A stretch of DNA of 26,051 nucleotides from positions 1-26,051 of the IMG/VR virus record IMGVR_UViG_3300015186_000011; one strand, written 5' to 3'. This DNA is from a virus. Taxonomy: Duplodnaviria > Heunggongvirae > Uroviricota > Caudoviricetes. This document shows, in pieces, positions 1-17,278 of the stretch; positions within the stretch are counted from its first letter, which is position 1, and each line of letters opens with the position of its first letter. Below the pieces are notes generated by a model. The model saw only the letters and a list, made by a program, of their open reading frames with translations, was not told the origin of the DNA and did no database searches. Both the position numbers and the translations under genes were made by a program.

Positions 1-1148
1 GAAGATGGATTAGAAACCACACCACCACTAACATCCATATTAGAAACACAATCTACAGTATATTTTTTATTTCCTACACCGTACATCAGGAATGTGGTCC
101 CTGTGGTAATATCAGGAGCAAATGTTGCAGTATATCCAGAGCCCCATTTGCCCACACCAAGACCAATTATCCCACCACCAGAAACAGGTGTTAACGTATC
201 CGTTATTACATACGCATTATCAGTACCATAAATAACCTTTCCTGTGTTAATGGCAGCTTGCCACGCGGCCCAGTCTATTGACTGAGATAATGAGTCAACA
301 AAAGGATATAAGGATTTTGCTTCAGAAATTGAAGAAAACCTCTCAGATAATGGATGATATTTCCCATCCCCAATTGCTCCGAATTGTTTTACATTTAAGA
401 AAAGAGCATTGTTTTCATGCTGAGTTATAGTTACAGCCCCGGCAAATGGCTGCCTTACACCAATTAATGCATCACCTTTTCCTTCTCCTGCGCTAGATAA
501 TTGCAGAAGAACATCTGCGGCACTGCCAGAAGGCACAGGTACACCTATAGGTTTACCATTGACGATACCAATGACAGTTTCTTCCAGTAAATGAACTGGA
601 GGAAGTGGTTCAATAAAATTATCTGGAACCCGTAATGTCCTGTTAATATTCACATTAACAATATTATCAACATAATTCTTTGTAGCTGCATCTTGAGGCT
701 TGGAAGGATCGCGCAAATTGCGGATGTAATTATTCAAAGCATCGTAATAGTTTGCCACAAATGATGGCTTGCGCAGCGCCAGGCTAAACCAACTGCGGAC
801 TTGCTGTATCAGCATCGTCAGCTTATCTAACGCGTCTTCATGCACCTCAGCGAAAAACTTTCCCTGATTTCGCAGATCAGTTTCCTGCGTAACCGGTAGC
901 TCTCGTGATATAGAAATCTGATAACCGTTAGCTAACGCCTTCGACAGAATTACATTACCGCCATTATATCCACCAGCCCCAGTGACAGTGTAATCAGTAT
1001 CAAGAGCCAGCACAGCGATATTTTCGTCAAGGTCAACCACCTGTACTGCCAGATCAGATTCCTTGAAAACCCTAAAGGTATACGGGAATGATGTCGTAAC
1101 GCCGTTACCGGTGTATTCGTTGTGGTCAACTTCGGTTGAGACCGTCAT
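1..1148 (-). CDS. Tailspike / tail fibre protein, partial (C-terminus runs past the window start); conserved N-terminal anchor domain plus beta-helix depolymerase-like region
   Basis: Minus-strand ATG at 1146-1148 preceded by a GGAGA Shine-Dalgarno. N-terminus MTVSTEVDHNEYTGNGVTTSFPYTFRVF carries the Y-x-G-x-G-V-T-T-x-F-P motif I recognise from phage tail fibre/tailspike N-terminal domains. Further in, NVKQFGAIGDGKYHP resembles the pectate-lyase-fold signature of polysaccharide depolymerases. The distal part (bases 1-700) is AT-rich. The reading frame is open to base 1. Confidence 0.7.
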   Translation of the reverse strand, partial: MTVSTEVDHNEYTGNGVTTSFPYTFRVFKESDLAVQVVDLDENIAVLALDTDYTVTGAGGYNGGNVILSKALANGYQISISRELPVTQETDLRNQGKFFAEVHEDALDKLTMLIQQVRSWFSLALRKPSFVANYYDALNNYIRNLRDPSKPQDAATKNYVDNIVNVNINRTLRVPDNFIEPLPPVHLLEETVIGIVNGKPIGVPVPSGSAADVLLQLSSAGEGKGDALIGVRQPFAGAVTITQHENNALFLNVKQFGAIGDGKYHPLSERFSSISEAKSLYPFVDSLSQSIDWAAWQAAINTGKVIYGTDNAYVITDTLTPVSGGGIIGLGVGKWGSGYTATFAPDITTGTTFLMYGVGNKKYTVDCVSNMDVSGGVVSNPS

Positions 1149-1200
1149 GTTAAATCTCCAGATAGTCGCAGCACCCGTTGCGCCGCATATCCGGTTATTC

Positions 1201-1268
1201 TATTACCTGAAAAACCACATATGGATAGACAACCCATAAATACGAACAGATATTACCTTTCAGGTGAT
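1201..1268 (-). promoter_or_regulatory. Conserved bipartite upstream element (copy A) ahead of the tailspike gene: TATTACC-N6-AACCACATATG, then TATTACCTTTCAGGT 50 bp away
   Basis: Plus-strand tattacc at 1201-1207 and 1251-1257, accacatatg at 1214-1223. The same arrangement recurs at 21198-21277 upstream of the portal operon. ACCTTTCAGGT is an ACCT-N3-AGGT inverted repeat. Confidence 0.5.
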
Positions 1269-1304
1269 TCGCAAAACGTGCTGGATAGCAAACAAATTAT
1301 TTGA

Positions 1305-1324
1305 TACTGTATAAACATACAGTT
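1305..1324. promoter_or_regulatory. LexA (SOS) box TACTGTATAAACATACAGTT
   Basis: Perfect CTGT-N8-ACAG with an AT-rich spacer (CTGT 1307-1310, ACAG 1319-1322), matching the E. coli LexA consensus TACTGTATATATATACAGTA. It lies about 20 bp upstream of the RBS of the 1344 gene and overlaps a TATAAA -10-like hexamer at 1310-1315. Confidence 0.65.
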
Positions 1325-1343
1325 ATTGCATGGAGAAGATAAG

Positions 1344-1601
1344 ATGCAGCAGTATCACTATCCACTGGAAGACGGATTTACCGAAAGGATTCACACGCCG
1401 GGAGGCGTCAGATCACTAGTGGAGGGATCGCACTTGATGAAATTACTCCGGGATCTCGATAAGGATGGATTTAATGTCGATGGCCCACTTGCCGAACTGA
1501 CTGCACTGATTAACTACGTCACCAGCTCACAGATGTCTATGCAGGATCTGCAAACACATCTCGACTATTGTGCCGAACAATTACGAAAGCAAACCAGATA
1601 A
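1344..1601 (+). CDS. Small (85 aa) standalone protein homologous to the C-terminal domain of the two antirepressors in this window; candidate SOS-inducible antirepressor
   Basis: ATG at 1344 with GGAG 8 nt upstream (the ORF track begins at a TTG at 1326). The product ...YPLEDGFTERIHTPGGVRSLVEGSHLMKLLRDLDKDGFNVDGPLAELTALINYV...DLQTHLDYC... aligns with the C-termini of the 1915..2607 and 3858..4802 products (YxPLKPGYRSLIHSPSGVLGLTENSLLMNLLN.LQEDGHDVSGAAAELTTMF...DIQTHAEY). Confidence 0.6.
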   Translation: MQQYHYPLEDGFTERIHTPGGVRSLVEGSHLMKLLRDLDKDGFNVDGPLAELTALINYVTSSQMSMQDLQTHLDYCAEQLRKQTR

Positions 1602-1741
1602 GGTTTGCAATTACCAAGCGGAGTGCTTATATTTACCTTTGCGGTAAATTTACATCGCACTCCTCTTGTGCCATAGTAATCGAGCACTGGCAAAATCCAG
1701 TGCCGGGATTGGTCTCCCGGATTACTACAGAGGCACATATG

Positions 1742-1760
1742 CCGCATAAGCGGTTTTTTT
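1742..1760 (+). terminator. Weak putative intrinsic terminator (short CCGC/GCGG stem followed by T7 run)
   Basis: ccgcataagcggttttttt. The stem is only 4 bp, so this is low confidence. Confidence 0.3.
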
Positions 1761-1914
1761 ATGTGTAAAGCGCACCTATTCTATGGTGGGCTGTGTGGGG
1801 GCACCGAAAGGTGCGCCGGGTTCCTTTGTAGCCGGTAAGACCAACTCTGCACAGTTCACCACCATCTGATTGGTCTCAGCGGTGGTGATTAACCTAACTA
1901 CAAAGGTGATCGCC

Positions 1915-2607
1915 ATGAATACCAAACCTTCCATCTTTTCCTTTGAGTCATCCTGCCAGATCCGTATGTTCATGATTGACGGAGAACCTTGGTTTGTCAC
2001 CAAAGATGTGTGCAATGCTTTGAATATTGATGTTACACAAGCGAGAAAACTTGATAAAAAAGGCTGGAACAAAAAGGGGCTGTATTCAATACAGACCCCT
2101 GGTGGAATACAAGAACTATCCATCGTTTCAGAATCAGGTCTCTACATCCTTATTCTGCGTTGCAAAGAGGCAATGACTGAGGGAACGAGAGCATTCAGAT
2201 TTCTTGAATGGGTTACAGGTGAGGTTCTTCCTCAGATCCGCCGCACCGGAAGTTACATTAAAAACTCGCTCCCGCAGGAAGAACGCATAAAGATGGTTGC
2301 CGACCAGGTAGCCAACGCCACGGCGTCAGCAGTGATGCAGGCGATGAAGATAGAGAACAAAACCTACAGTGCCCCACTGAAGCCCGGCTACCGCAGCCTG
2401 ATTCATTCGCCGTCTGGTGTTCTCGGCCTGACGGAGAACTCACTGCTGATGAATTTGCTGAACAAGTTACAGGAAGACGGGCACGATGTATCGGGCGCGG
2501 CAGCGGAGCTGACCACCATGTTCTGCTACATCGTCGGTGTGAGCAAATGCCTGCGTGATATCCAGACGCACGCGGAGTACATCAATGACAAGGCAGGGTT
2601 CTTCTGA
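1915..2607 (+). CDS. Phage antirepressor with BRO-N N-terminal domain and the shared antirepressor C-terminal domain
   Basis: ATG at 1915 preceded by AAGGTGA. N-terminus MNTKPSIFSFES..QIRMFMIDGEPWFVTKDVCNAL is a typical BRO-N signature. The C-terminal ~80 aa are near-identical to the C-terminus of the 3858..4802 product. Confidence 0.75.
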   Translation: MNTKPSIFSFESSCQIRMFMIDGEPWFVTKDVCNALNIDVTQARKLDKKGWNKKGLYSIQTPGGIQELSIVSESGLYILILRCKEAMTEGTRAFRFLEWVTGEVLPQIRRTGSYIKNSLPQEERIKMVADQVANATASAVMQAMKIENKTYSAPLKPGYRSLIHSPSGVLGLTENSLLMNLLNKLQEDGHDVSGAAAELTTMFCYIVGVSKCLRDIQTHAEYINDKAGFF

Positions 2608-2631
2608 CGGGCGGCGGCACATGGATGTGCC
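2373..2631. repeat. Left arm of a ~260-bp inverted repeat (partner 3834..4092), ~95% identical at DNA level
   Basis: Reverse complement of 3834-4092 matches 2373-2631 with only a few mismatches. The match spans the antirepressor C-terminal domain coding sequence and ~24 bp beyond the stop codons (cgggcggcggcaca[t/g]ggatgtgc). Confidence 0.7.
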
Positions 2632-2728
2632 TACAATTATCAATAATTGTTTACACTCGTTGCAGTTAAAAGCATTATACTCATGTTTAAAATTACCCGA
2701 TTGGTAAAGTCGATTGGTTGAGGTTCAT

Positions 2729-3055
2729 ATGAGCAGAAGATATGTCAAGGAGCTGGCTATAGAGTCTGGCACCCCTTTGGGTATCGTTCCTGGCTCCAAC
2801 TATGCCAAGGCTTTAAACCGAGACTCTGTCGTCAAAGTTATATCAAGAGACATGAATATGGTCGGAGACGATCTCAGACGGTCAGAAAATCGTGTTTATG
2901 CTGAATATATAGTAAAGAACGGAAAAAAAATTGCAGCGCCTGCTGGCGGAAAATGGGCAATAGTGACAGGGAAAAACTCAAATGCAAGAGGAAAACCAGA
3001 AGCTAAAGGAATGTCCTTCGACAAATATGCAAAAATCTATTGGGCAACCAAGTGA
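2729..3055 (+). CDS. Hypothetical protein (108 aa), first gene of a plus-strand cassette
   Basis: ATG at 2729 with GAGGT 5 nt upstream. Product MSRRYVKELAIESGTPLGIVPGSNYAKALNRD... has no family I can place. A CAATTATCAATAATTG inverted repeat lies upstream at 2634-2649. Confidence 0.45.
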   Translation: MSRRYVKELAIESGTPLGIVPGSNYAKALNRDSVVKVISRDMNMVGDDLRRSENRVYAEYIVKNGKKIAAPAGGKWAIVTGKNSNARGKPEAKGMSFDKYAKIYWATK

Positions 3056-3530
3056 TAACGAAGAAACTGAGTTCGAGGAAGTTGAGGAAGGGCTAAGTAA
3101 CGAGATCATTCAACACCCAGATGCCTTCACAAGAGTTCTTGATCGCCCTGAAATTCAGGAGATAGTTGTCGCTCACCATGCGTTTCAGGGTCCGCTTCCT
3201 CCCCCCTATCTGCTTCGCGGGTATCAGGATATTTTACCTGATGCCCCCGAACGCATCTTCCAGCTGACGGAGAAGGAGTTTGCTCACCGCCAGAAAATGG
3301 AGGAAAAGGCACTTGACGGGGCTATTAATAGAGATAAACGTGGGCAGTGGTTTGGCCTGAGTGCAACTATTTTTACAGTAGCTTGTGCAACATTATTAGG
3401 TTTAACAGGTCATGAAGTTCTAGCTGGCACAGTGATCGGTACAGTTGTTGCAGTGGCTGGTATTTTTGTTCTCAGACAAAAACCGAGCTTAAAGAAGAAC
3501 GCTGAAGATAAAACACCAGAAGAAGAGTAA
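2982..3530 (+). CDS. DUF2335-like predicted membrane protein (acidic N-terminal region, two C-terminal TM helices)
   Basis: Motif GPLPPPYLLRGYQDILPDAPERIFQLTEKEFAHRQKMEEKALDGAINRDKRGQWFG followed by hydrophobic segments matches my recollection of DUF2335. Start is ambiguous (ATG at 2982 or 3027); both overlap the upstream ORF in another frame. Confidence 0.55.
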   Translation: MQEENQKLKECPSTNMQKSIGQPSDNEETEFEEVEEGLSNEIIQHPDAFTRVLDRPEIQEIVVAHHAFQGPLPPPYLLRGYQDILPDAPERIFQLTEKEFAHRQKMEEKALDGAINRDKRGQWFGLSATIFTVACATLLGLTGHEVLAGTVIGTVVAVAGIFVLRQKPSLKKNAEDKTPEEE

Positions 3531-3553
3531 GCCCGCGACGCGGGCTTTTTTGT
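3531..3553 (+). terminator. Rho-independent terminator
   Basis: GCCCG-cgacg-CGGGC stem-loop followed by TTTTTTGT, immediately after the stop of the DUF2335-like gene. Confidence 0.7.
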
Positions 3554-3623
3554 GGGCGAAACAAAAGTCAGTGCTACACTCATTGACGCCACATTGAGGT
3601 GGTTTATAGATGGAAATTTCACA

Positions 3624-3785
3624 ATGAAAAAAGCATTTGCTGCACTGTTCGTTTTGTTGTCTCTGGTAGCTTCAACTCAGGCCTTTGCCGGTCGTTGTCA
3701 GCACGACAGCGACACTGCTGCTGACGGCTCCCGCTGCGGTGGGCGTTCTGCGGATTCCCGCCCGGGCGGCGGTGGCATTCGTTAA
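3624..3785 (+). CDS. Small putative secreted peptide (53 aa) with N-terminal signal peptide
   Basis: MKKAFAALFVLLSLVASTQAFA has signal-peptide character with an AxA cleavage motif. The mature part is Gly/Arg/Asp-rich with 2 Cys. RBS is weak and the gene is short, so confidence is low. Confidence 0.4.
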   Translation: MKKAFAALFVLLSLVASTQAFAGRCQHDSDTAADGSRCGGRSADSRPGGGGIR

Positions 3786-3807
3786 AAACAAGGCCGCGAA
3801 AGCGGCC

Positions 3808-3821
3808 TGTGACATGTCACG
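3808..3821. promoter_or_regulatory. Copy 1 of the 14-bp palindromic motif CGTGACATGTCACA (read on the minus strand), between convergent genes
   Basis: Perfect 12-bp palindrome GTGACATGTCAC at 3809-3820, just after a GGCCGC-GAAA-GCGGCC hairpin (3792-3807). The identical 14-mer recurs at 22254-22267 and 24519-24532. Confidence 0.6.
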
Positions 3822-3833
3822 ATAGTTTCGTTT

Positions 3834-4092
3834 TGCACATCCCTGTGCCGCCGCCCGTCAGAAGAACCCTGCCTTGTCGTTGATGTACTCCGCGTGCGTC
3901 TGGATATCACGCAGGCATTTGCTCACACCAACGATGTAACAGAACATGGTGGTCAGCTCCGCCGCCGCGCCCGATACATCGTGCCCGTCTTCCTGTAACT
4001 GGTTCAGCAGATTCATCAGCAGTGAGTTCTCCGTCAGACCGAGAACACCAGACGGAGAATGAATCAGACTGCGGTAGCCGGGCTTCAATGGA
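3834..4092. repeat. Right arm of the ~260-bp inverted repeat (partner 2373..2631)
   Basis: See left arm; covers the 3' end of the minus-strand antirepressor gene plus ~24 bp downstream. Confidence 0.7.
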
Positions 4093-4802
4093 TAACCATA
4101 ACATTTTGTCTGTGTTTTAATTGCCTCACGAAGCGCATCTAACATCTTGACTGCCACTTCATCATTCTCTGATGCAGATCCAGCAGGGAGATACTCCCCT
4201 TCAAGCGGAACCCGAGCAACAAGAGACAACGCTTCGGCAAATTGATCTTCACCAATTTCTTTGTACGAACAGCCAAAATGAGATTTCAGTGACGACCACA
4301 TGGTGATCATCGCCTTAGCCTGTTTTTCTTTTGGCAGAGACTGACCGCGACTCATGACGAGTTGTTTAATGGCTTCCTGCTGTTCAGTTGTTATTTTACC
4401 CGGCAACGCCTTTTTAGCTTTGCGTGGGTTAACCACATGGCCTTTAGTCCAGTACTCGTAGAGCACATCGTCACACTCTTCCTGATACTGGATTACCTTG
4501 TCGCGGATTTCAGGGCGGACTTTGTTAGGGCTGATGGTTTGCAGCCAACCTGCAAGTTTGCGTAAAGCAAGACAGATAACCAGACGACGCTGAGTATCAC
4601 CGGGGAGCTGAATGGTCATTTCGACCATGCAGCTCTTAAAGCGTTGTTGCAACTTGCGGAACTGCGTTTTCCAGTCCAGCCCCATACCTTCAACGACTGG
4701 TTTCATTGGGGTGTATGGTTCGCCGTTATGATTGACAACATAAAGCTCTGCGCCGTGGAATGGCACGTTGATAGTAGATACCGCTGTTGCTATACTCGTC
4801 AT
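3858..4802 (-). CDS. ant: P22 Ant-like antirepressor (AntA / P22_AR_N-type N-terminal domain plus shared C-terminal domain)
   Basis: 314-aa ORF with AGGAA RBS. N-terminus ...GAELYVVNHNGEPYTPMKPVVEGMGLDWKTQFRKL is antirepressor N-domain-like. It sits immediately downstream of an Arc-like gene, as in P22 immI. Confidence 0.75.
   Translation of the reverse strand: MTSIATAVSTINVPFHGAELYVVNHNGEPYTPMKPVVEGMGLDWKTQFRKLQQRFKSCMVEMTIQLPGDTQRRLVICLALRKLAGWLQTISPNKVRPEIRDKVIQYQEECDDVLYEYWTKGHVVNPRKAKKALPGKITTEQQEAIKQLVMSRGQSLPKEKQAKAMITMWSSLKSHFGCSYKEIGEDQFAEALSLVARVPLEGEYLPAGSASENDEVAVKMLDALREAIKTQTKCYGYPLKPGYRSLIHSPSGVLGLTENSLLMNLLNQLQEDGHDVSGAAAELTTMFCYIVGVSKCLRDIQTHAEYINDKAGFF
4768..4796 (+). promoter_or_regulatory. 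Sigma70-like promoter (TTGATA-17 bp-TATACT) firing antisense across the ant translation start
   Basis: -35 TTGATA 4768-4773, 17-bp spacer, -10 TATACT 4791-4796. Predicted start near 4803, directly opposite the ant start codon (4800-4802) and RBS. Confidence 0.5.
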
Positions 4803-4877
4803 GTCGTTAATTCCTATACGTAGTTTTACGATACTGAAGCCCTGACGGTCTGGCCACCGTGGGGCTTCGCTGTTTTA
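4803..4877 (+). ncRNA. sar: Candidate sar-like antisense small RNA (~75 nt) complementary to the ant ribosome-binding region
   Basis: A promoter at 4768-4796 and an intrinsic terminator on the same strand (nested hairpin GAAGCCC..ACGGT-ctggcc-ACCGT..GGGCTTC at 4836-4868, then GCTGTTTTAT) bracket a ~75-nt transcript in the arc-ant intercistronic region. This mirrors the sar antisense RNA of P22 immI. Confidence 0.45.
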
Positions 4878-5042
4878 TGCCACGCTATTCTTCTCACCAG
4901 TGAGTCCATACACTTTCCTCAGCTGATAGATAATCTCTGTATTGAACTTTCGGCATTCTTTTTCGCCATTTCTTTCAATAGCTAACTTCACATCGTCCGG
5001 AAAACGAACTCGTCGTTGACACATCTCTTTTGCTTTTTGCAT
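4875..5042 (-). CDS. arc: Arc-like ribbon-helix-helix repressor (55 aa)
   Basis: ATG at 5040-5042 with a strong TAAGGAGA Shine-Dalgarno (the track ORF starts at an upstream GTG). Product MQKAKEMCQRRVRFPDDVKLAIERNGEKECRKFNTEIIYQLRKVYG resembles P22 Arc (..FNLRWPREVLDLVRKVAEENGRSVNSEIYQRV..). It lies upstream of ant and divergent from an Mnt-like gene. Confidence 0.65.
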   Translation of the reverse strand: MQKAKEMCQRRVRFPDDVKLAIERNGEKECRKFNTEIIYQLRKVYGLTGEKNSVA

Positions 5043-5056
5043 TTCATATCTCCTTA

Positions 5057-5071
5057 GCCCCACCGTGGGGC
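5057..5071. promoter_or_regulatory. Palindromic operator candidate GCCCCACCGTGGGGC (Mnt-operator-like core CCACCGTGG) at the predicted +1 of the arc-ant promoter
   Basis: Near-perfect palindrome between the predicted Pant -10 and the arc RBS. The core matches, as I recall it, the P22 mnt operator core CCACGGTGG (reverse complement). The 12-mer CCACCGTGGGGC recurs at 4854-4865. Confidence 0.5.
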
Positions 5072-5077
5072 AAAATA

Positions 5078-5125
5078 ATTGTCACACCGTGCGTCATTGA
5101 TGTCAAGCACACGGTGAGGCATACT
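5078..5125. promoter_or_regulatory. Divergent overlapping promoters: Pant-like (minus strand) and Pmnt-like (plus strand)
   Basis: Minus strand: -35 TTGACA (plus coordinates 5101-5106), 17 bp, extended -10 TGtGACAAT (5078-5083). Plus strand: -35 TTGATG 5097-5102, 17 bp, -10 CATACT 5120-5125. Inverted CACCGTG / CACGGTG half-sites at 5085-5091 and 5110-5116. Confidence 0.5.
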
Positions 5126-5162
5126 TCAATCATTGCAAGTAACTCAATATTTGGTGAAGAAC

Positions 5163-5594
5163 ATGAGCAGAGAAGATCCACAACTAAGGATCAGACTTCC
5201 CGTTGAAGTAAAAGAAAAAATAGAAATTTCTGCAAAAGCCAATAAGCGATCAATGAACGCTGAAATAGTACAACGTCTTGACACCAGCTTTCTGAAAGAT
5301 ATTCATGAAGATGACGTAATTTCTGCTTATGAAGCAAAAATTATTGCAAACAATGCACGACATGAAATATCAAATATTATTTTCAAAAGAACCTTTAATG
5401 AAATTAATAAGAAAATAACACTTGGACATACAAGTTTTTATATAAACCTTAATGACCTTGAACTGGAATCACTTGCAGATAATGATTACCAGATCATCTT
5501 TGAAAAAACATTTAATAAGCTCAATGAACTAGGTTACATCATCTGTGAAAACTCATGGGATGCAGATGGTTTTGGAATTGAAATACCTGAATAG
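5163..5594 (+). CDS. mnt: Mnt-like ribbon-helix-helix repressor with an AT-rich C-terminal extension (143 aa)
   Basis: ATG at 5163 (track ORF starts at a TTG at 5133). N-terminus MSREDPQLRIRLPVEVKEKIEISAKANKRSMNAEIVQRL closely resembles P22 Mnt (MARDDPHFNFRMPMEVREKLKFRAEANGRSMNSELLQIV). The C-terminal ~95 aa have no match I recognise and the DNA turns markedly AT-rich. Confidence 0.7.
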   Translation: MSREDPQLRIRLPVEVKEKIEISAKANKRSMNAEIVQRLDTSFLKDIHEDDVISAYEAKIIANNARHEISNIIFKRTFNEINKKITLGHTSFYINLNDLELESLADNDYQIIFEKTFNKLNELGYIICENSWDADGFGIEIPE

Positions 5595-5607
5595 GAAGAA
5601 CAAAAGG

Positions 5608-5630
5608 CGTGTACATATTACACGTCTTTA
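5608..5630 (+). terminator. Hairpin CGTGTA-catat-TACACG followed by a T-rich tract; putative terminator or operator
   Basis: 6-bp inverted repeat with TCTTTAAT downstream, between the Mnt-like gene and the membrane-protein gene. Confidence 0.3.
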
Positions 5631-5684
5631 ATACAATTGAAAAACGCCACATTACTGATGTATGTTACAACAAGGAGCGATATT

Positions 5685-6248
5685 TTGAAAACCATATCTA
5701 TATTAAAGGTTGCATTAGGCGTCGCTATTATTTTGACTCTCTCAATATTGTTTTATTTTTACCACAAAAAAACTGCTATTGCTCTTGATGGTCACGCGGC
5801 AAACTCATTTTTCTCAGAGTACATAGTGCCGCTATCAGGAAGCGGTATAACAAATAAATATACTGACTATGACATCAAATATGGAATTGATGATGGGGAG
5901 ACTATTGTATTACATGTAATCATTAAAAACCTAATGACAGTAAATAAAAATACAGACTTCAACGATAAAAATACAATACATCACAACAACAGCAAAACAT
6001 TAATTTCTTATAGTAGCAACATCTATACGGATAAATACCTAAAATACATATCAGAAGATACAATAAAAGAAACCCGCGAAAAGTTAAAAAACATATATTG
6101 TGCATCCGGCAGTTTTCACAAATTATCGCCGCAAGAGCGTTTATTCTACGAAGCAAGAAAACAACGTAAGTCAATAATATTACATTATTATGCTGATTCA
6201 GGGGAGTCACTCATATTTAATATTGGGGTTTCCCCTGAATCATGCTAA
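5685..6248 (+). CDS. AT-rich moron: membrane-anchored protein of unknown function (~188 aa), candidate superinfection-exclusion or abortive-infection factor
   Basis: TTG start at 5685 with AGGAG 8 nt upstream (alternatives: ATG 5658, track TTG 5637). N-terminal hydrophobic helix ISILKVALGVAIILTLSILFYFY, then an Asn/Lys/Tyr-rich domain. GC content is far below the flanking phage genes. Confidence 0.5.
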   Translation: MKTISILKVALGVAIILTLSILFYFYHKKTAIALDGHAANSFFSEYIVPLSGSGITNKYTDYDIKYGIDDGETIVLHVIIKNLMTVNKNTDFNDKNTIHHNNSKTLISYSSNIYTDKYLKYISEDTIKETREKLKNIYCASGSFHKLSPQERLFYEARKQRKSIILHYYADSGESLIFNIGVSPESC

Positions 6249-6259
6249 AGGTGTTTAAC

Positions 6260-9200
6260 TCACCGCATCACCGGATCCACCTGGTTTATTAGTGGCGCAA
6301 TCCAGAACAGGTTATTGCCGGGTATCAGGGTTCGGACATTATGCACAATACGATCACCGGCATCACCATTCAACACTCCTGCGGTCACATCAATGATGCT
6401 ATCCGCAAGACCAAATGACGGTCCGAATAGAGATCCTACGAATCCACGACTGGCATACCTAGACTGTGTGCCAGTGCCAAATAAAGCCCCCAGCCCAACA
6501 GCACCACCAGTAGCCTTTTCAGCCATGTTGTTATATTCCATCAATGGCCCAAGAATACCGGATCTATCTATACCCTCAAGCACCAGCTTCTCTGGTGACC
6601 AGTCAACATTTTTCCCTTTCGATGCTTCTTTAAGCGCATAGACCAGTGAGCCAAGAGCAATCTGAAATGCAGTGCCATAATAAAATTGCGCAGTTCCTTC
6701 CTGTAACCCACCAAGTAGCGCACGGTTGTATGAAGCCGTTGTGAATGATTTAAACTGAAATATCGTTCGCCCCATTGGAGTACTCGCCCATAAAGGTGTG
6801 TCACCAATACCGGGGGTGATGATAGTGTTATTAACGTCTTTCAGAACCGCTGACTGGAATACTCCGGCAACGTACTGATCGTCCCATTTATCAAAGTTAC
6901 CAATGTGCCATCCATCAATTACCTCACCATGTTTCTCGAACTCACTGCGAATACGCGCAGCCATATTGTCGTTGATACCGAGTTTTGCCATGCGACGTGC
7001 AGAAAACGCACCAGACAAAATACCGTCTGACGTGAGCATTCCGTTCATGGATTTGTTTATGTCATTAAATCGATCCATGAGTGTCAGCTTGCCGAAGGCA
7101 TCAGTAATTCGCTCCATTCCTGCTTCGACTGCTGTTGTCCTGGAAGAACTGTCAACAAGATCACCAATTGCACGAGAACGTGAATGTAGTACAGTTTCCA
7201 ATCCAATCCCCATCTTCAACATCTCTTCTTTGCTGGCCTTAAATGCCGGTGATTGGGATATCTGAGAAGCATAGCCTTTCATGGTGTTACGGAAACCATT
7301 AACCATAACCCCTCTGGCCAGATCTGGAATAGCTGATACTGTCATTCCACCGAGTTTGGTCGTGAAGTTCACATCCCGCAGAAAAGCGCCAGCACGAACA
7401 AAAAACGAAGACGGGTCATCAGGCATACCATATGTACCAACAAGACGATCGCGTAATGCTGTTATGTCTCTGAGATCATTTGCTCTTGATTTTGAAAGTC
7501 TGGACTGTTCTTTCCGTAATTCCTTTTCGTACTTTCGCATTAATGAATCGAGTTTACCCTGAGGAACAACTTCACCATTGCTCTCATAACGTGCTTTCAG
7601 ATTTGCCACACTTTCGTCATATTTCGCCTTTATTTTTTCAGGCACTTCCCGTAACAGACTGTCATATTCGTCCTCAATTAATTGCAGACGCTCAGTCATA
7701 GTTCGTTTGCCAAATGTTCTCGTCAACTCAATTTCTGCTGCCGCTTCACGGATATGACGTTGCAGCACGTAATTCACATCACTTTCAAGATAATCCCTGA
7801 TAAGACTATCAGGAACATTTAATGTTCTTTCTTTCGTACTACCTGCGGCTTTTACAGAAAATACGCTGACAAAATCCTGTGGAACCTTAGCACCAGTAAT
7901 TTTATTAATTACGATATCCGCTGCAATTTCAGCATCCTCAGGATCCAGTGTTTTATTGCCTCTCGACCACCAGTCAACCAAAATACGTCGAAATTTATCG
8001 CGTTCACTGATTATTTTTCCAACTTTATATATACGTGGAAAATAGCTTGCCTGGCCTAATGCTTTCAGTTCTTCATCTGGCGGTAATAAACCAAGCTTTT
8101 GCATTTCAACCTTCACCCGATTTAATACAGTTCGCATCGCCTGCGCCGTTTCCTGAACAACAGGATTAGCATGCACATCACCGCTTCGCATAGCATTCCC
8201 AACCTGCTGACGAAATGAATCAAAACTCATGTCGCCACCATCAGCTTTATACTTTGCGTATGCCTGTTTATTTCCGACAACAACAGCAGCTTCTTCACGC
8301 TGCCATCCACGTGTACGGGTTTCTACAGCTACCGGTGTTTCAATCCCCCTTTCATTTCCTTTAAGGGTGAAATTATTTTCGGCTAACTCCAGCGTTGTTT
8401 TTCGCACTGTCTTGGACGGAGACTCCATTAACCTTGTCAAAGGAGTAAGATAGCTCCCTGCTTTCCATGCAGCCTTTCCAACCCACCCACCGGAAACAGG
8501 GGTTAAATCATCCAGAGTCGCTGTATCAATTTTCATAGCACCAACACTACCACCATCAGAAAGCGAAGCGGCAGCCCTGTCAGTCGCTGATGTAATGCTC
8601 ATATTATCAAGAGCATCAGCAACCTCACGCGTGGCTGCAGCCCGGACGGATGGCGAAAGCGCAACACCAGCACTGGCAAACACGCCGCTCATCATCGCAC
8701 CCGCTGCAACGTGAGCGGCACTTTCACCCCATGAGCGTGTTATTTGCTGATTATTCAGCACAACCTCGCTTAATGCTGTACCGGCAGCACCAATCGCAAT
8801 CTGTGAGCCAATACGCGCCAGTGCCCCTCCTTGAGCACCGGGGATAAACATTGACGCAACAGTAACCGGATCCATTCCCGCAGCAATACTGGCAAGAGTT
8901 CCAACTACGCCAGCATCAGACAATAAACGTCTGTCTTCATTTTCATCATCTATCTGCTGCTTAATCCACGCCGTTTCCTCTGGCGATCGGGAATCTGCAA
9001 ATTTCGCCCCCCAGTATTCATAACCGTGCAACTCATTTTTATCAGCATATGGGTTATAACCTTCGACCGGTTCAAACTGTCTGGCTGGTCGGAAAAAACC
9101 AGCCAGAATATTGTTCTGTCGCATTGCAGCCCCCCATACGGAAGGCTCCGGTGGCAATGGCTCAGGATTAGCCCCTTCCGGAAGGGCAACATCAAACCCA

Positions 9201-9274
9201 GTTTGTTCCGGCAAAACATTACCTGACGGGATCAGTCCGTTATTAAGATCTTCAGCTTGTGCATAAACTGGCAT
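6260..9274 (-). CDS. Large internal virion / ejection protein (1004 aa), T7 gp16-position analogue
   Basis: Last and largest ORF of the coupled structural operon; its start overlaps the upstream stop (TAATG at 9274). Ala/Gly-rich with coiled-coil segments. Assignment is by size and synteny only. Confidence 0.55.
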   Translation of the reverse strand: MPVYAQAEDLNNGLIPSGNVLPEQTGFDVALPEGANPEPLPPEPSVWGAAMRQNNILAGFFRPARQFEPVEGYNPYADKNELHGYEYWGAKFADSRSPEETAWIKQQIDDENEDRRLLSDAGVVGTLASIAAGMDPVTVASMFIPGAQGGALARIGSQIAIGAAGTALSEVVLNNQQITRSWGESAAHVAAGAMMSGVFASAGVALSPSVRAAATREVADALDNMSITSATDRAAASLSDGGSVGAMKIDTATLDDLTPVSGGWVGKAAWKAGSYLTPLTRLMESPSKTVRKTTLELAENNFTLKGNERGIETPVAVETRTRGWQREEAAVVVGNKQAYAKYKADGGDMSFDSFRQQVGNAMRSGDVHANPVVQETAQAMRTVLNRVKVEMQKLGLLPPDEELKALGQASYFPRIYKVGKIISERDKFRRILVDWWSRGNKTLDPEDAEIAADIVINKITGAKVPQDFVSVFSVKAAGSTKERTLNVPDSLIRDYLESDVNYVLQRHIREAAAEIELTRTFGKRTMTERLQLIEDEYDSLLREVPEKIKAKYDESVANLKARYESNGEVVPQGKLDSLMRKYEKELRKEQSRLSKSRANDLRDITALRDRLVGTYGMPDDPSSFFVRAGAFLRDVNFTTKLGGMTVSAIPDLARGVMVNGFRNTMKGYASQISQSPAFKASKEEMLKMGIGLETVLHSRSRAIGDLVDSSSRTTAVEAGMERITDAFGKLTLMDRFNDINKSMNGMLTSDGILSGAFSARRMAKLGINDNMAARIRSEFEKHGEVIDGWHIGNFDKWDDQYVAGVFQSAVLKDVNNTIITPGIGDTPLWASTPMGRTIFQFKSFTTASYNRALLGGLQEGTAQFYYGTAFQIALGSLVYALKEASKGKNVDWSPEKLVLEGIDRSGILGPLMEYNNMAEKATGGAVGLGALFGTGTQSRYASRGFVGSLFGPSFGLADSIIDVTAGVLNGDAGDRIVHNVRTLIPGNNLFWIAPLINQVDPVMR

Positions 9275-11991
9275 TATTTAGATCCCCACGAAAAGTAATC
9301 TTTAAATTTGTCCATACGTTCGTTATGCAGGCGCTGATACTGCTCATCCAGAGCGCGATGCTTGTCTTTGAAGTTTCGTATAGCCTGTCCACGCATAATT
9401 TCTTCCTGCTCGTACTGCTCCCATTCCTGCTGCATTTTCTTATAAGGTTCCCAATCTTCTAGTGATGGTTCCCAACGCATAGGACGCCCATGTTTGTTAT
9501 AAAACGGCTGGACCCGATCGATGCCATTTTCATCCTTAGTTCTTACCATAATGGCGTAATCACCATTACGAGGTGTTAACACGTCAGGGGTTATGAATAA
9601 TTCTCCATTAATACGACTCTCAGGGGTTTTTGTCTCAACTACAGGAGCATTACCTGACGTGATCCCAAGCAACGTCGGACTGGTTGTTATAATCTCTTTG
9701 CGCTCACCGTACATCAGCCGTTCTTTTTCAGCTTTCCACTGCGCCGCCTGCCAGCCTGACGGCCCATATTGATAAAGCGCCTCCGGTGCATATTTCATAA
9801 ACTGCGCTTCTCCGTTAACCTCGCTGATACTCCAGGTGCGGGCTATCTGCTGGTTGGTCATTTGCTTCGCTACGTCAGCGTTACCACCAGCAACGCGGTA
9901 GTTAATGTCATACAGCGTCTGATAGTCATTACGGAATCTAGCTGCTTCCGGCGTCTGGTCATCCGCAGACGGATCCCAACGGAACCACTGCGCCATATTG
10001 CTGACAGCAGAATTCATCGCCTTGCTGCGATCATTTTTGTACTCTTTTGAACTCTGCGTTGATGCCAATTGAGCTTTAAGAGCATCGGTCTGGTTGTACG
10101 TAAGGTTCTGCGCCTGCTCGATAGCCGCATCAGCAGACATGCCAGAATCAGTTAGTTGCTTAACAGTCAGATAAAAACCCTGCATATCCTTCGGCATATT
10201 TCCAATAGATGCATTGTCTGTTTCATATAACCGACTAAACAGTTCCGCCGCATTTTTAACCACTTCCTGATTGCTGGATCGGGATACTGCTGAAAGCTGC
10301 GTGATGACCTGCGAAGGCATTATGCCAGTCTGAGCCACAAGCCGAACAACCCCATCATGAGTGGAGGCATCATTAATACGAAAGTTCTGCGCCATTTCTG
10401 TGTAATCAGCAGCTTTCTGCATTGACTTGTTGCTTGGGTCTAATTTTTCACCTATTGTCAGCGCCTCATTGAATCTGCGTGAATCCCGTTGCGCCTGAAT
10501 TGCTTCATTTGATCTCTGAAGCAATGCAGACAATTTTCCGTAAGCATCGAGTTTTAACGCATAGTGAGGATCGTTAACCTCAGGCTTCACTTTCTGCATT
10601 TCTTCTTGCTGCTGAGAAGGAGGCAAATACTGAATTGCCTGGAATATTCTCGCGTTATCAATCGCTATATCCAGTTGATTGATTATTTTATCTGCGTTTT
10701 TTCCATACCCCCTGATGATGGTCTCCTGAGCCGGTATATAATCTGGAACCTCACCGTTATATAGCTGTGCCATGGTGTTATTAATAGCTGGCTCAAGCTG
10801 TTCTAATATTAACTTCCTTTGCTTTTCTATCTGACTATTAGCAAGGTTATCTATTTGATAAATAGTCAGCGGATCCATTCCAGTTTTATTTTTTCTATAT
10901 CGGGAAAGCCACCCTTGTGTTTCTGATGGAAGATTTCGGATAAATTCTTCTTCTGATATTTCACCTTTACGTGGATCACCGACTTTGGCGATCAGTTTAT
11001 CCACGTTACCCATCCCCCAGTTATATGCTGCTCCGGTCAATATTTCGGAACCGTACTTACCATACAGTTGATTTACATAGTCACTGGCGAGCATTTCATG
11101 CTGTTGTTCGTCCGTAGGGTTGTATTCAACGCCACGCTTGGCCGCCAGTTCTTTTCCTGTGCCCGGCATTAACTGGTATTTCCCCTGTGCTCTCTCTCCA
11201 GAAGATGTTATCGGTCCCTCAAGAAGACTACCATCAGGATTAAAATGTCGATCACCTGATTCAACAAGGCGTATGGCACGCATGTCCATGCCTCCAGAAT
11301 CATTTTTCTGAAACAGACCATTTAGCCATCCTTCTGGATTGGCAGCGGCATAATTCTTCGCCCGCATTTCTGTGGCACTGCGATCATCACTTTCTATTTC
11401 TTCCAGAATGCGTTCTTGTGACCATCCCCTGGCAGCTCCATATCTGGCAATGGCTACCATTCTGGAATTTCGGGCTAAGGTGGCAGTTTGCGGGTCATTC
11501 CAGGCATCCGCTTCATTTTGTATCCATAATTTTCTCGTTGCCTGATATTGCTCATCTTCATAGGCATTTGTCTGCCCTATCTCATGTCTGAGAACTCCAG
11601 TACTGAACTGAATTTTCTGTGTTCTGGCTTGTTGCAAAAACATATTTCTTGCTGCTTCATCAGTCAATGAAGCAGCTATTTCTTCCACATCCTGATCAAA
11701 TCCAGATATGTACTCTTGCCCCTTACCAATCGCATTTTTGCCTTGTTGTGCATAAAAACCGGTTTGAGGGTTATAAAGACGTTCATTGCTGCGCTGATTA
11801 AGCTGAAGGATGGCATCCTGAGACAATGCAACATTCGCTTTCTGCCTGGCTTCACCATATGCCACCGCATACTGATCTGCGACATTCGCCAGCACCTGAC
11901 CTGCTTGAGGAACATCGAAGGTCTGAAAACCACCGGTTTGCACACCACGACTTTGCACCTGACGTCCGGATATTGTTGGTACGACTGGCAT
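9274..11991 (-). CDS. Internal virion protein with a soluble lytic transglycosylase (SLT) domain (906 aa)
   Basis: True start is probably the ATG at 11991 (MPVVPTISG..), with GGAGG 6 nt upstream and a TAATG overlap with the preceding gene; the track ORF extends to 12066. SLT signature LVESGDRHFNP...SSGERAQGKYQLMPGTGKELA...TGAAYNWGMGNV lies at roughly 11000-11310. Confidence 0.65.
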   Translation of the reverse strand: MPVVPTISGRQVQSRGVQTGGFQTFDVPQAGQVLANVADQYAVAYGEARQKANVALSQDAILQLNQRSNERLYNPQTGFYAQQGKNAIGKGQEYISGFDQDVEEIAASLTDEAARNMFLQQARTQKIQFSTGVLRHEIGQTNAYEDEQYQATRKLWIQNEADAWNDPQTATLARNSRMVAIARYGAARGWSQERILEEIESDDRSATEMRAKNYAAANPEGWLNGLFQKNDSGGMDMRAIRLVESGDRHFNPDGSLLEGPITSSGERAQGKYQLMPGTGKELAAKRGVEYNPTDEQQHEMLASDYVNQLYGKYGSEILTGAAYNWGMGNVDKLIAKVGDPRKGEISEEEFIRNLPSETQGWLSRYRKNKTGMDPLTIYQIDNLANSQIEKQRKLILEQLEPAINNTMAQLYNGEVPDYIPAQETIIRGYGKNADKIINQLDIAIDNARIFQAIQYLPPSQQQEEMQKVKPEVNDPHYALKLDAYGKLSALLQRSNEAIQAQRDSRRFNEALTIGEKLDPSNKSMQKAADYTEMAQNFRINDASTHDGVVRLVAQTGIMPSQVITQLSAVSRSSNQEVVKNAAELFSRLYETDNASIGNMPKDMQGFYLTVKQLTDSGMSADAAIEQAQNLTYNQTDALKAQLASTQSSKEYKNDRSKAMNSAVSNMAQWFRWDPSADDQTPEAARFRNDYQTLYDINYRVAGGNADVAKQMTNQQIARTWSISEVNGEAQFMKYAPEALYQYGPSGWQAAQWKAEKERLMYGERKEIITTSPTLLGITSGNAPVVETKTPESRINGELFITPDVLTPRNGDYAIMVRTKDENGIDRVQPFYNKHGRPMRWEPSLEDWEPYKKMQQEWEQYEQEEIMRGQAIRNFKDKHRALDEQYQRLHNERMDKFKDYFSWGSK

Positions 11992-16399: not shown

Positions 16400-16409
16400 T
16401 CCTGCAATA

Positions 16410-16427
16410 AAGGGGCCGAAGCCCCTT
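16410..16427 (-). other. Intra-operon stem-loop AAGGGGC-ttcg-GCCCCTT (UUCG tetraloop on the minus strand)
   Basis: Perfect 7-bp stem between two structural genes, followed on the minus strand by only a short U-rich stretch. Likely an attenuator or mRNA-stability element rather than a full terminator. Confidence 0.4.
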
Positions 16428-16443
16428 GTCTGATACGCGAGGC

Positions 16444-16779: not shown

Positions 16780-16789
16780 CGATATCCCC

Positions 16790-17227: not shown

Positions 17228-17241
17228 CTTCTTTCTCCATT

Positions 17242-17263: not shown

Positions 17264-17278
17264 GGTTAATAACAGGCG

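What the first reader, a model, noticed from the sequence alone, without database searches (positions are those of the whole stretch)
4768..5163. P22 immI-like immunity module (mnt, arc, sar-like RNA, ant) inside a T7-like structural genome
The Mnt-like and Arc-like proteins are divergently transcribed from overlapping promoters, with an Mnt-operator-like palindrome (core CCACCGTGG) at the predicted +1 of the arc-ant promoter. Downstream of arc, a promoter-terminator pair on the opposite strand should produce a ~75-nt RNA antisense to the ant translation start, as P22 sar does. The 12-mer CCACCGTGGGGC appears a second time inside that terminator hairpin (4854-4865), which hints at a second repressor site or RNA-DNA dual use. 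The module is combined with T7-like tail and internal-virion genes rather than P22 ones, so the genome is mosaic.
Basis: partly seen in the sequence, partly recalled or inferred. Interest (0 to 1): 0.6.

Follow-up and report, generated by a model that had tools for sequence, protein, structure and literature searches.

The report
P22-type antirepressor control module with sar
This stretch is a real but fairly ordinary prophage "immunity I" cassette: two small repressors and an antisense RNA that keep an antirepressor gene silent, of the kind first described in Salmonella phage P22, here carried by an epsilon15/phiV10-like E. coli phage (TL-2011b) and wired slightly differently.

Summary
The window is 99.9% identical here to Escherichia phage TL-2011b. 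It encodes, in P22 immI order, an Mnt-like repressor (5163-5594 +), an Arc-like repressor (4875-5042 -) and an Ant antirepressor (3858-4802 -). An antisense RNA at 4804-4871 (+) passes Rfam's curated threshold for sar (44.8 bits against 43).

The palindrome GCCCCACCGTGGGGC (5057-5071) starts at the predicted +1 of the arc-ant promoter. It matches the P22 Mnt operator at 11 of 15 positions, in the same place.

- There are three operators with a CAC-N-GTG core, at 5057-5071, 5081-5095 and 5106-5120.
- The two promoters lie back to back and overlap only in their -35 hexamers.
- Mnt has a long C-terminal domain unlike that of P22 Mnt.

The sar promoter -10 sits at the same offset in 48 of 51 ant starts, and the terminator stem covaries.

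The second copy of CCACCGTGGGGC (4854-4865) is real. But it is polymorphic among near-identical prophages and absent from other lineages, so it is probably incidental.

"T7-like" should read epsilon15/phiV10-like. Verdict: a variant of a known system, of modest interest.

The parts
3858..4802 (-). ant, antirepressor gene (314 aa)
   Evidence: Pfam P22_AR_N E 2.9e-45 over residues 12-123. It is 39% identical to P22 Ant over 219 aa, E 1e-42. The C-terminal roughly 100 aa are not similar to P22 Ant.
4768..4796 (+). Psar, promoter of the antisense RNA, lying inside ant codons 3-12 (-35 TTGATA 4768-4773, -10 TATACT 4791-4796, TG extension)
   Evidence: Consensus scan, 10 of 12 matches. A TAnnnT hexamer lies at the same offset (ant nt 7-12, antisense strand) in 48 of 51 distinct related ant starts, against 12 or fewer at any other offset. 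The P22 Psar -10 is the same TATACT at the same place.
4803..4874 (+). sar-like antisense RNA, about 70-74 nt. SL1 is 4803-4832 with the anti-Shine-Dalgarno UUCCU at 4811-4815. SL2, the terminator hairpin, is 4836-4868, followed by a U run at 4873-4876.
   Evidence: Rfam RF00262 at 4804-4871, 44.8 bits against a gathering score of 43. Fold -24.1 kcal/mol, z -2.6. The same two-hairpin fold appears in about 50 related sequences. Covariation in the stems: 0 of 500 shuffles reach the observed score.
4854..4865 (+). Second copy of CCACCGTGGGGC, forming the 3' arm of the sar terminator hairpin
   Evidence: Exact repeat. It is polymorphic: G4861T in L002, L017, L018, L020, L022 and L026. It is absent from the other lineages.
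4875..5042 (-). arc-like gene (55 aa), a distant Arc/Mnt-family ribbon-helix-helix protein
   Evidence: 33% identical to P22 Arc over 40 aa from residue 1. hhalign is in register, probability 36%. Pfam Arc scores 12.8 bits, below the cut-off of 20.4, and 11 of 15 family members match, best E 1.8e-4. A profile search hits Arc chains at E 0.08-0.2 in register. R, P, V and the R..N.E motif are shared in the alignment.
5057..5071 (.). Site C, GCCCCACCGTGGGGC, operator at +1 to +15 of Pant. It is the positional and sequence counterpart of the P22 Mnt operator.
   Evidence: 11 of 15 positions identical to P22 GGTCCACGGTGGACC read on the arc strand, at the same distance from the -10. A palindrome with the CAC-N-GTG core is present here in all 12 genome loci and nearly all 50 viral-contig variants. 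The centre base 5064 is C or G in different prophages.
5078..5106 (-). Pant, the arc-ant promoter (-35 TTGACA 5106-5101, -10 GACAAT 5083-5078, TG extension), predicted +1 about 5071
   Evidence: Consensus scan, 10 of 12 matches. The hexamers are invariant or nearly so across related loci.
5081..5095 (.). Site B, GTCACACCGTGCGTC, operator in the Pant spacer. It is the positional counterpart of the P22 Arc operator but has a different sequence.
   Evidence: Matches GNCNCACNGTGNGNC. Only three matches with at most 1 mismatch occur in the window, all in this region, against 0.69 expected. Identical in 11 of 12 genome loci and nearly all viral-contig variants.
5097..5125 (+). Pmnt, the predicted mnt promoter (-35 TTGATG 5097-5102, 17-bp spacer, -10 CATACT 5120-5125), predicted +1 about 5132
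   Evidence: Read from the sequence. It is below the scan's threshold, at 8 of 12 matches. TTGATG-17-CATAAT is conserved at this position in the related loci. The -35 hexamer overlaps that of Pant by 2 bp.
5106..5120 (.). Site A, AGCACACGGTGAGGC, operator in the Pmnt spacer
   Evidence: One mismatch to GNCNCACNGTGNGNC. In nearly all other loci this site is GCCCCACNGTGGGG. The window's lineage carries a diverged version.
5163..5594 (+). mnt-like gene (143 aa): an N-terminal Arc/Mnt ribbon-helix-helix domain plus a C-terminal domain of about 95 aa of unknown kind
   Evidence: Pfam Arc E 1.1e-14. Best PDB sequence match is P22 Mnt 1MNT, E 3.5e-7. 32% identical to P22 Mnt. AlphaFold model pLDDT 82.7; Foldseek's top hit is Arc 1PAR for the N-terminus, and there is no convincing match for the C-terminus. 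260 relatives clustered at 90% identity.

Best explanation
This is a working immunity-I ("ant moron") cassette of the P22 type. It sits between the ejection/internal-virion genes and the tailspike region of an epsilon15/phiV10-like E. coli prophage.

Proposed mechanism, inferred by homology with P22:
- In the lysogen, the Mnt-like repressor is made from the weak promoter Pmnt (5097-5125).
- It binds the palindrome at the start of the arc-ant transcript (site C, 5057-5071) and keeps Pant (5106-5078) off, so no antirepressor is made.
- After infection or derepression, Pant fires and makes Arc-like protein and Ant.
- Arc-like protein then shuts Pant down by binding in its spacer (site B, 5081-5095).
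- A roughly 70-nt antisense RNA is made from Psar inside the first codons of ant. It ends at the hairpin next to the arc stop codon. It pairs with the ant ribosome-binding site (AGGAA, 4811-4815) and blocks Ant translation.
- Ant that is made would inactivate a prophage main repressor.

Differences from P22:
- Pant and Pmnt lie back to back, sharing only 2 bp of their -35 hexamers.
- Each promoter has its own operator in its spacer (site B and site A), and Pant has a third at +1 (site C).
- All three operators share a CAC-N-GTG core.
- Both repressors carry the same Q-x-R-x-R residues on the DNA-reading strand.
- Mnt carries a long, different C-terminal domain.

What is shown: the parts, their homology, their positions and their conservation. 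What is inferred: transcription, binding, which repressor binds which site, and the target of Ant.
For: Identity of the window:
- 99.9% identical to phage TL-2011b over 3800-5700.
- RefSeq annotates Ant and an "Arc-like repressor" there.

Proteins:
- Ant: P22_AR_N E 2.9e-45 and 39% identity to P22 Ant.
- Mnt-like: Pfam Arc E 1.1e-14, best PDB match 1MNT, Foldseek top hit Arc.
- Arc-like: in-register weak similarity to Arc by four methods.
- An alignment of all four repressors keeps the strand and the R..N.E motif in register. The DNA-facing residues are Q/R/R in both window proteins, against H/N/R in P22 Mnt and Q/N/R in P22 Arc.

sar RNA:
- The Rfam hit is above the gathering score.
- The Psar -10 is kept at one offset in 48 of 51 ant starts, although the Ant proteins differ in type.
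- The two-hairpin fold is kept, with many different inner-stem sequences.
- The outer terminator stem is 99% paired. Four of its 8 pairs change on both sides. No shuffle (0 of 500) reaches the covariation score, and slid controls are far lower.
- The U run lies only on the sar strand.

Operators:
- Site C matches the P22 Mnt operator at 11 of 15 positions, in the same position.
- Three sites fit GNCNCACNGTGNGNC within 64 bp and none elsewhere in 26 kb.
- The layout is conserved in 12 genera-level loci and about 48 of 50 viral-contig variants.

Position:
- The module lies between the internal-virion genes and the tailspike region, as the P22 "ant moron" does (PMC2629481).
Against: - Nothing here shows transcription, RNA accumulation or protein-DNA binding.
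- The Arc-like protein is below Pfam's Arc cut-off (12.8 against 20.4 bits), and its monomer model is poor (pLDDT 58.8).
- Which repressor binds which of the three sites cannot be decided. The DNA-reading residues of both proteins and site B are nearly invariant, so there is no covariation to use.
- Both proteins may bind all the sites.
- Site A is diverged in this lineage.
- The main repressor that Ant would target lies outside the window.
- The deposited TL-2011b sequence has a frameshift in mnt. If real, that phage lacks Mnt.
Confidence: 0.85

Rival explanations
1. The parts are the same but the protein-to-site assignment differs. One repressor, for example the Mnt-like protein acting as a higher oligomer through its C-terminal domain, occupies all three CAC-N-GTG sites. 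The Arc-like protein either competes for the same sites or acts mainly at sites A and B, shutting both promoters as P22 Arc does.
For: Both proteins have the same Q-x-R-x-R DNA-facing residues. All three sites fit one 15-bp pattern. Sites A and C are the same type (CCCCAC-N-GTGGGG) in most loci, while site C is of the site-B type in the Mixta and Xenorhabdus loci. P22 Arc represses both promoters, and here that would need two sites.
Against: By position, site B corresponds to the P22 Arc operator and site C to the P22 Mnt operator. Site C matches the P22 Mnt operator at 11 of 15 positions, and the Mnt-like protein keeps P22 Mnt's Arg2 and Arg10.
Confidence: 0.25
2. The second 12-mer (4854-4865) is a working second operator. 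A multimeric Mnt-like protein would bridge site C and the sar terminator 206 bp away, forming a loop or roadblock between arc and ant. Alternatively, the sar 3' arm would pair with the complementary arc leader.
For: The 12-mer repeat is exact and includes the full 9-bp core CCACCGTGG. Shuffles give 0.12 copies of the core on average, and 1 of 100 reaches 2.
Against: G4861T breaks the core in prophages over 99% identical to the window (L002, L017, L018, L020, L022, L026). The broken form also occurs in a second lineage (L045, L058), so it is probably ancestral. In the window the G only turns a U-U mismatch into a U-G pair in the stem. Apart from the window's own lineage, 40 of the other 41 distinct arc-ant spacers lack the core; the one exception, L079, has an unrelated CACAGTG. 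The left half of the site does not fit the operator pattern. GGGGCTTC is part of the hairpin shared with P22.
Confidence: 0.1
3. The module is a decaying remnant that no longer regulates anything. The hairpin would be just a terminator and the palindrome just a 5' stem-loop that stabilises the arc-ant mRNA.
For: Ant morons are often degraded in P22-like phages (PMC2629481). Broken versions exist: L060 has lost the promoters and site B, L094 has lost arc, and the TL-2011b record has a frameshifted mnt. A palindrome at +1 would also form a GC-rich 5' hairpin in the RNA.
Against: All three ORFs are intact in the window and in 36 complete E. coli genomes. The promoter hexamers, the three sites, the Psar -10 and both RNA stems are conserved across genera, with compensatory changes. 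That is not expected without selection.
Confidence: 0.05
4. The two ribbon-helix-helix proteins are antitoxin-type or plasmid-type regulators unrelated to ant control.
For: There is a weak FitA-like RHH hit (E 8.8e-5, below the cut-off) and a TprA-like hit (E 4e-4, far below the cut-off) for the Mnt-like protein.
Against: Stronger matches go to Arc/Mnt. No toxin gene is adjacent. In nearly all of the related loci examined (all 12 genome loci and all but a few degraded viral-contig variants) the pair flanks the same promoter region and is followed by sar and an antirepressor gene.
Confidence: 0.03

Closest known systems
Immunity I region (immI, "ant moron") of Salmonella phage P22: mnt, Pmnt/Pant, arc, sar, ant
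   Same: - Same genes in the same order and orientation, at the same place in the late region, after the ejection-protein genes.
- Ant has the P22_AR_N domain.
- Mnt and Arc are Arc/Mnt-family ribbon-helix-helix proteins.
- An operator lies at +1 of Pant with the same 9-bp core, CCACGGTGG on the arc strand.
- A second operator lies in the Pant spacer.
- The antisense RNA starts next to the ant start codon, from a -10 TATACT within ant codons 3-4, and ends at a hairpin abutting the arc stop codon.
   Different: - Pant and Pmnt are back to back, with predicted start sites about 61 bp apart, rather than superimposed with start sites about 37 bp apart.
- There are three operators instead of two, all with a CAC-N-GTG core.
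- The operator in the Pant spacer bears no resemblance to the P22 Arc operator (ATGATAGAAGCACTCTACTAT).
- Both repressors carry Q/R/R on the recognition strand, against H/N/R and Q/N/R in P22.
- Mnt is 143 aa with a different C-terminal domain, instead of 83 aa with a coiled-coil tetramerisation tail.
- Psar has a good -35 (TTGATA), against a poor one in P22.
- The host phage is epsilon15/phiV10-like, not P22-like.
Rfam family sar RNA (RF00262)
   Same: - Full-length match, 68 of 68 model positions, above the gathering score.
- Two hairpins, with the anti-Shine-Dalgarno sequence in the first.
- The terminator stem GAAGCCCUGAC...GGGGCUUC is shared with P22.
   Different: - The score is only just above threshold (44.8 against 43; P22 itself scores 97.8).
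- SL1 has a different sequence.
- Relatives in other genera score below threshold (34 bits) or are not detected at E 0.01 or better, although they keep the fold.
Escherichia phage TL-2011b (NC_019445) and related E. coli prophages
   Same: - 99.9% identical over 3800-5700 and 98% over 3530-17694.
- Ant and an "Arc-like repressor" are already annotated there.
   Different: - The record carries one extra G after window position 5188, which frameshifts mnt. It therefore annotates a 113-aa hypothetical protein and no Mnt.
- sar, the promoters and the operators are not annotated.
- The left 3.5 kb of the window differs from TL-2011b.

Membership tests
P22 immI (ant moron) module | Gene order: mnt divergent from arc-ant, with an intergenic control region | tested here: met
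   ORFs at 5163-5594 (+), 4875-5042 (-) and 3858-4802 (-). The order is the same in 12 genome loci.
P22 immI (ant moron) module | Antirepressor homologous to P22 Ant | tested here: met
   P22_AR_N E 2.9e-45. 39% identity over 219 aa. The C-terminal third is not similar.
P22 immI (ant moron) module | Mnt: Arc/Mnt-type ribbon-helix-helix N-terminal domain | tested here: met
   Pfam Arc at 54.5 bits against a cut-off of 20.4. 1MNT is the best PDB match, E 3.5e-7. Foldseek's top hit is Arc 1PAR.
P22 immI (ant moron) module | Mnt: short C-terminal coiled-coil tetramerisation tail (83-aa protein) | tested here: not met
   [not shown]
P22 immI (ant moron) module | Arc: member of Pfam Arc (PF03869) | tested here: inconclusive
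   12.8 bits against a cut-off of 20.4; 11 of 15 relatives match, best E 1.8e-4. In-register alignments to Arc. The monomer model is of low confidence.
P22 immI (ant moron) module | Mnt operator at the Pant start site | tested here: met
   Sequence level only. Site C at 5057-5071 matches the P22 operator at 11 of 15 positions at the same offset from the -10. Binding cannot be tested here.
P22 immI (ant moron) module | Arc operator in the Pant spacer | tested here: inconclusive
   A conserved palindrome (site B) lies in the spacer. Its sequence is unrelated to the P22 Arc operator.
P22 immI (ant moron) module | Pant and Pmnt superimposed on opposite strands | tested here: not met
   In P22 the hexamers interdigitate. 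Here the -35 hexamers overlap by 2 bp and the promoters point away from each other.
Rfam sar RNA (RF00262) | Covariance-model score at or above the gathering score | tested here: met
   44.8 bits against 43, E 3e-6 for the whole window.
Rfam sar RNA (RF00262) | Antisense to the ant ribosome-binding site, with the promoter inside the ant 5' end and the terminator at the arc stop codon | tested here: met
   Coordinates. The layout matches the annotated P22 sar. The -10 is conserved in 48 of 51 ant starts.
Rfam sar RNA (RF00262) | Two-hairpin structure maintained by compensatory change | tested here: met
   92.8% of cells are paired, 7 pairs change on both sides, and 0 of 500 shuffles reach the score.
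Rfam sar RNA (RF00262) | The RNA is made and represses ant translation | not testable with these tools
   Needs RNA-seq or a Northern blot, and reporter assays.
T7-like podoviruses | T7-type structural module | tested here: inconclusive
   PHROG hits to internal virion proteins, tail tubular proteins and a head-tail adaptor. The 821-aa tail protein is 83-99% identical to those of phiV10/SPN1S-type phages and only 30-45% identical to "tail tubular protein B" of distant podoviruses. The close kin are epsilon15/phiV10-like temperate phages, not T7.

The most novel reading that the evidence does not exclude
The module represents a widespread, undescribed branch of immI, found in E. coli, Citrobacter, Enterobacter, Yersinia pestis, Proteus, Xenorhabdus and others. 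In this branch the Arc-like and Mnt-like repressors have converged on, or kept, one recognition code (Q-x-R-x-R reading CAC-N-GTG). They would compete or cooperate on three operators that flank two back-to-back promoters. The new C-terminal domain of Mnt would act as an oligomerisation or signal-sensing domain that sets when antirepressor is released.
Probability: 0.3. Interest if true: 0.5.

Novelty: new variant of a known kind. Interest (0 to 1): 0.33.

Why it matters
The finding shows that the classic P22 antirepressor switch, antisense RNA included, is a portable cassette. It also works in epsilon15/phiV10-like prophages of pathogenic E. coli, and in prophages of many other Enterobacterales.

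It improves annotation of TL-2011b-like prophages:
- sar, the three operators and the promoters are not annotated.
- mnt is mis-called in the reference record.

The three-operator layout and the two homologous repressors with the same recognition residues offer a compact natural system. It could be used to study how ribbon-helix-helix proteins divide closely similar sites between them.

Antirepressors can induce co-resident prophages, including Stx phages. How this ant gene is controlled may therefore matter for prophage induction in EHEC strains.

Tried and rejected
- A single-sequence search of the PDB with the Arc-like protein returned only spurious TAL-effector repeat hits.
- Pfam and NCBIfam gave no hit for the Arc-like protein at default thresholds.
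- The AlphaFold monomer model of the Arc-like protein was too poor (pLDDT 58.8) to use for fold search.
- RNAalifold on MAFFT alignments recovered only the outer terminator stem, because the inner stems differ in length and bulge position. I therefore used per-sequence folds and counted pairs only for columns that are in register.
- I looked for covariation between repressor residues and operator bases to assign proteins to sites. The DNA-reading residues and site B are nearly invariant, so the test has no power.
- I looked for a P22-style Pmnt superimposed on Pant and found no plausible hexamers.
- Literature searches for TL-2011b and for immI/Mnt/Arc found no description of this module in TL-2011b or epsilon15-like phages.
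- I considered and rejected the toxin-antitoxin reading: no adjacent toxin gene, and the better matches are to Arc/Mnt.
Full report
**What the window is**

- Positions 3800-5700 are 99.9% identical to Escherichia phage TL-2011b (NC_019445). About 35 complete E. coli genomes carry the same region at about 96% identity.
- RefSeq annotates TL-2011b with "anti-repressor Ant" and "Arc-like repressor". The module lies between the large internal-virion/ejection genes and the tailspike/O-acetyltransferase region.
- PHROG hits and tblastn show the structural genes are closest to phiV10/SPN1S-type (epsilon15-like) temperate podoviruses. Relationship to tail-tube B proteins of T7-like phages is only remote. 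"T7-like" is therefore imprecise. The mosaic point stands, because other sequenced epsilon15-like phages lack this cassette.

**Check of the observation**

- All coordinates hold.
- The promoter scan finds TTGATA-17-TATACT at 4768-4796 (+) and TTGACA-17-GACAAT at 5106-5078 (-), both with a TG extension.
- GCCCCACCGTGGGGC is a perfect 15-bp palindrome at 5057-5071. It starts at the predicted +1 of the arc-ant promoter (Pant).
- CCACCGTGGGGC occurs exactly twice, at 4854 and 5060. The 9-bp core CCACSGTGG averages 0.12 copies in shuffles.
- The antisense RNA folds into two hairpins.

**The proteins**

- Ant (3858-4802, -) has the P22_AR_N domain (E 2.9e-45) and is 39% identical to P22 Ant over its first 219 residues.
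- The Mnt-like protein (5163-5594, +) has the following properties:
  - It matches Pfam Arc at 54.5 bits.
  - Its best solved-structure match is P22 Mnt (1MNT, E 3.5e-7).
  - The Foldseek top hit of its model is Arc.
  - Beyond residue about 50 it differs from P22 Mnt. It is 143 aa, with a confidently modelled alpha/beta domain that has no convincing structural relative.
- The 55-aa Arc-like protein is a distant relative:
  - It scores below Pfam's cut-off (12.8 against 20.4 bits; 11 of 15 relatives match).
  - It aligns with P22 Arc from residue 1 by BLASTP, hhalign and profile search.
- In a joint alignment all four repressors keep the strand, the Pro and the R..N.E motif in register.
- The DNA-facing strand residues are Q/R/R in both window proteins. 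They are H/N/R in P22 Mnt and Q/N/R in P22 Arc.
- No toxin gene is adjacent, so the antitoxin reading is rejected.

**The antisense RNA**

- Rfam's sar model matches 4804-4871 (+) over its full length at 44.8 bits, against a gathering score of 43. P22 itself scores 97.8.
- As in the annotated P22 region, the RNA starts at the base next to the ant start codon.
- Its -10 (TATACT) is the reverse of ant codons 3-4. Its terminator abuts the arc stop codon.
- In related loci the antirepressor genes are of several unrelated types. Even so, a TAnnnT hexamer sits at the same offset on the antisense strand in 48 of 51 distinct ant starts, against 12 or fewer at any other offset.
- About 50 distinct homologous sequences fold into the same two hairpins. 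The anti-Shine-Dalgarno sequence lies in the first hairpin, and the inner terminator stems have many different sequences.
- On columns that are in register:
  - 92.8% of cells pair.
  - Seven pairs change on both sides.
  - None of 500 shuffles reaches the observed covariation score.
  - Slid controls are far lower.
- The U run lies only on the sar strand.

**The control region**

I collected 11 loci from different genera: Raoultella, Kluyvera, Citrobacter, Rouxiella, Pluralibacter, Dryocola, Proteus, Mixta, Yersinia pestis and Xenorhabdus. I also collected 80 viral contigs giving 50 distinct upstream regions.

Nearly all share one layout. Read from mnt towards arc, it runs:
- The Pmnt -10 (CATAAT in most loci; CATACT here).
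- Site A (GCCCCAC-N-GTGGGG in most loci; AGCACACGGTGAGGC here, 5106-5120), lying in the 17-bp Pmnt spacer.
- The two -35 hexamers (TTGATG and TTGACA), overlapping by 2 bp.
- Site B (GTCACACCGTGCGTC, 5081-5095, almost invariant), lying in the Pant spacer and touching its -10.
- Site C (5057-5071), at +1.

In the window the three sites are the only matches to GNCNCACNGTGNGNC with at most 1 mismatch.

Comparison with P22:
- Site C matches the P22 Mnt operator (GGTCCACGGTGGACC) at 11 of 15 positions and lies at the same distance from the -10.
- The differences fall at the outer positions. This fits the replacement of His6 and Asn8 of Mnt while Arg2 and Arg10 are kept. That link is my inference from published Mnt genetics, not tested here.
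- Site B occupies the position of the P22 Arc operator but is unrelated in sequence.
- In P22 the two promoters are superimposed. Here they are back to back.
- The central base of site C varies (C or G) between near-identical prophages, as expected for an unspecified centre.

**The second 12-mer**

- It is real but is not conserved.
- A G4861T variant (CCACCGTTGGGC) occurs in E. coli prophages that are 97.6-99.5% identical in this region. It also occurs in a second lineage whose Mnt is only 67% identical, so it is probably the older state.
- In the window the G merely turns a U-U mismatch into a U-G pair in the terminator stem.
- Outside the window's own lineage, 40 of the other 41 distinct arc-ant spacers lack the core. 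The one exception, L079, carries an unrelated CACAGTG.
- Part of the 12-mer (GGGGCTTC and its neighbours) belongs to the hairpin shared with P22.
- I rate a function as a second operator at about 10%.

**Mechanism**

- By homology with P22 (background from PMC2629481, and the primary papers it cites), Mnt keeps Pant off in the lysogen.
- Arc limits Pant after it fires.
- sar blocks ant translation by pairing with its ribosome-binding site.
- Ant inactivates a main repressor.
- The parts and their conservation are shown. Transcription, binding, the assignment of proteins to sites and Ant's target are inferred.
- Because both repressors carry the same recognition residues and all sites share one core, cross-binding is a serious alternative.

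**Novelty**

- The kind of system is textbook.
- The instance is already deposited and partly annotated, and sar passes a curated model.
- Three things appear not to be described. My searches found nothing, but they cover open-access papers only:
  - the three-operator, back-to-back promoter layout;
  - the long Mnt;
  - the breadth of this branch (260 protein clusters).
- I file it as a variant of a known kind, of modest interest.

Noticed in passing
window 1684-2607: Rfam isrK (1684-1760, 74.7 bits) and C4 antisense RNA (1779-1866, 78.6 bits) lie directly upstream of a Bro-N domain ORF (1870-2607, Pfam Bro-N 2e-13). This looks like a second antirepressor-like cassette, of the P1/Gifsy type and controlled by an antisense RNA, about 2 kb from the sar/ant cassette.
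   Followed up: no
window 5188 (TL-2011b record NC_019445/JQ011317): The deposited TL-2011b sequence has one extra G here. This frameshifts mnt, so the record annotates a 113-aa hypothetical protein instead of the 143-aa Mnt-like protein. It is either a sequencing error or a real mnt mutant.
   Followed up: partly
L020 (E. coli SCU-387, NZ_CP051688) 330-470: This prophage is recombinant within sar itself. The ant 5' end, Psar and hairpin 1 are P22-type. Hairpin 2 and arc are window-type. The terminator hairpin therefore acts as a recombination junction between exchangeable ant genes and the arc/mnt control unit. CUS-3 annotates a "boundary sequence" at this spot.
   Followed up: partly
[not shown]
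   Followed up: partly
L060 and L094 (IMG/VR contigs), upstream of mnt: These are natural degraded versions. In L060 a deletion fuses site A to site C and removes both -35 hexamers and site B, probably by recombination between the repeated operators. L094 keeps sites A and B with mutated hexamers but has lost site C and arc.
   Followed up: no
window 5685-6248 (+): A 187-aa protein with an N-terminal membrane helix (phrog_8033, unknown function) sits between mnt and the ejection-protein gene. That is the position P22 sieA occupies. No sequence similarity to SieA was tested.
   Followed up: no
window 2982-3530 (+) and 3624-3785 (+): A DUF2335 membrane protein, which RefSeq names a YafO-family toxin, and a small secreted or lipoprotein-like ORF (MKKAFAALFVLLSLVASTQAFAG...) lie just downstream of ant. 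They are probably further moron genes.
   Followed up: no
window 1-3530 versus 3530-17694: The window is 98% identical to TL-2011b from 3530 to 17694. To the left of that the similarity is patchy (86-97%) and rearranged. The window is therefore a TL-2011b relative rather than TL-2011b itself. A tRNA gene lies at 21599-21672.
   Followed up: no
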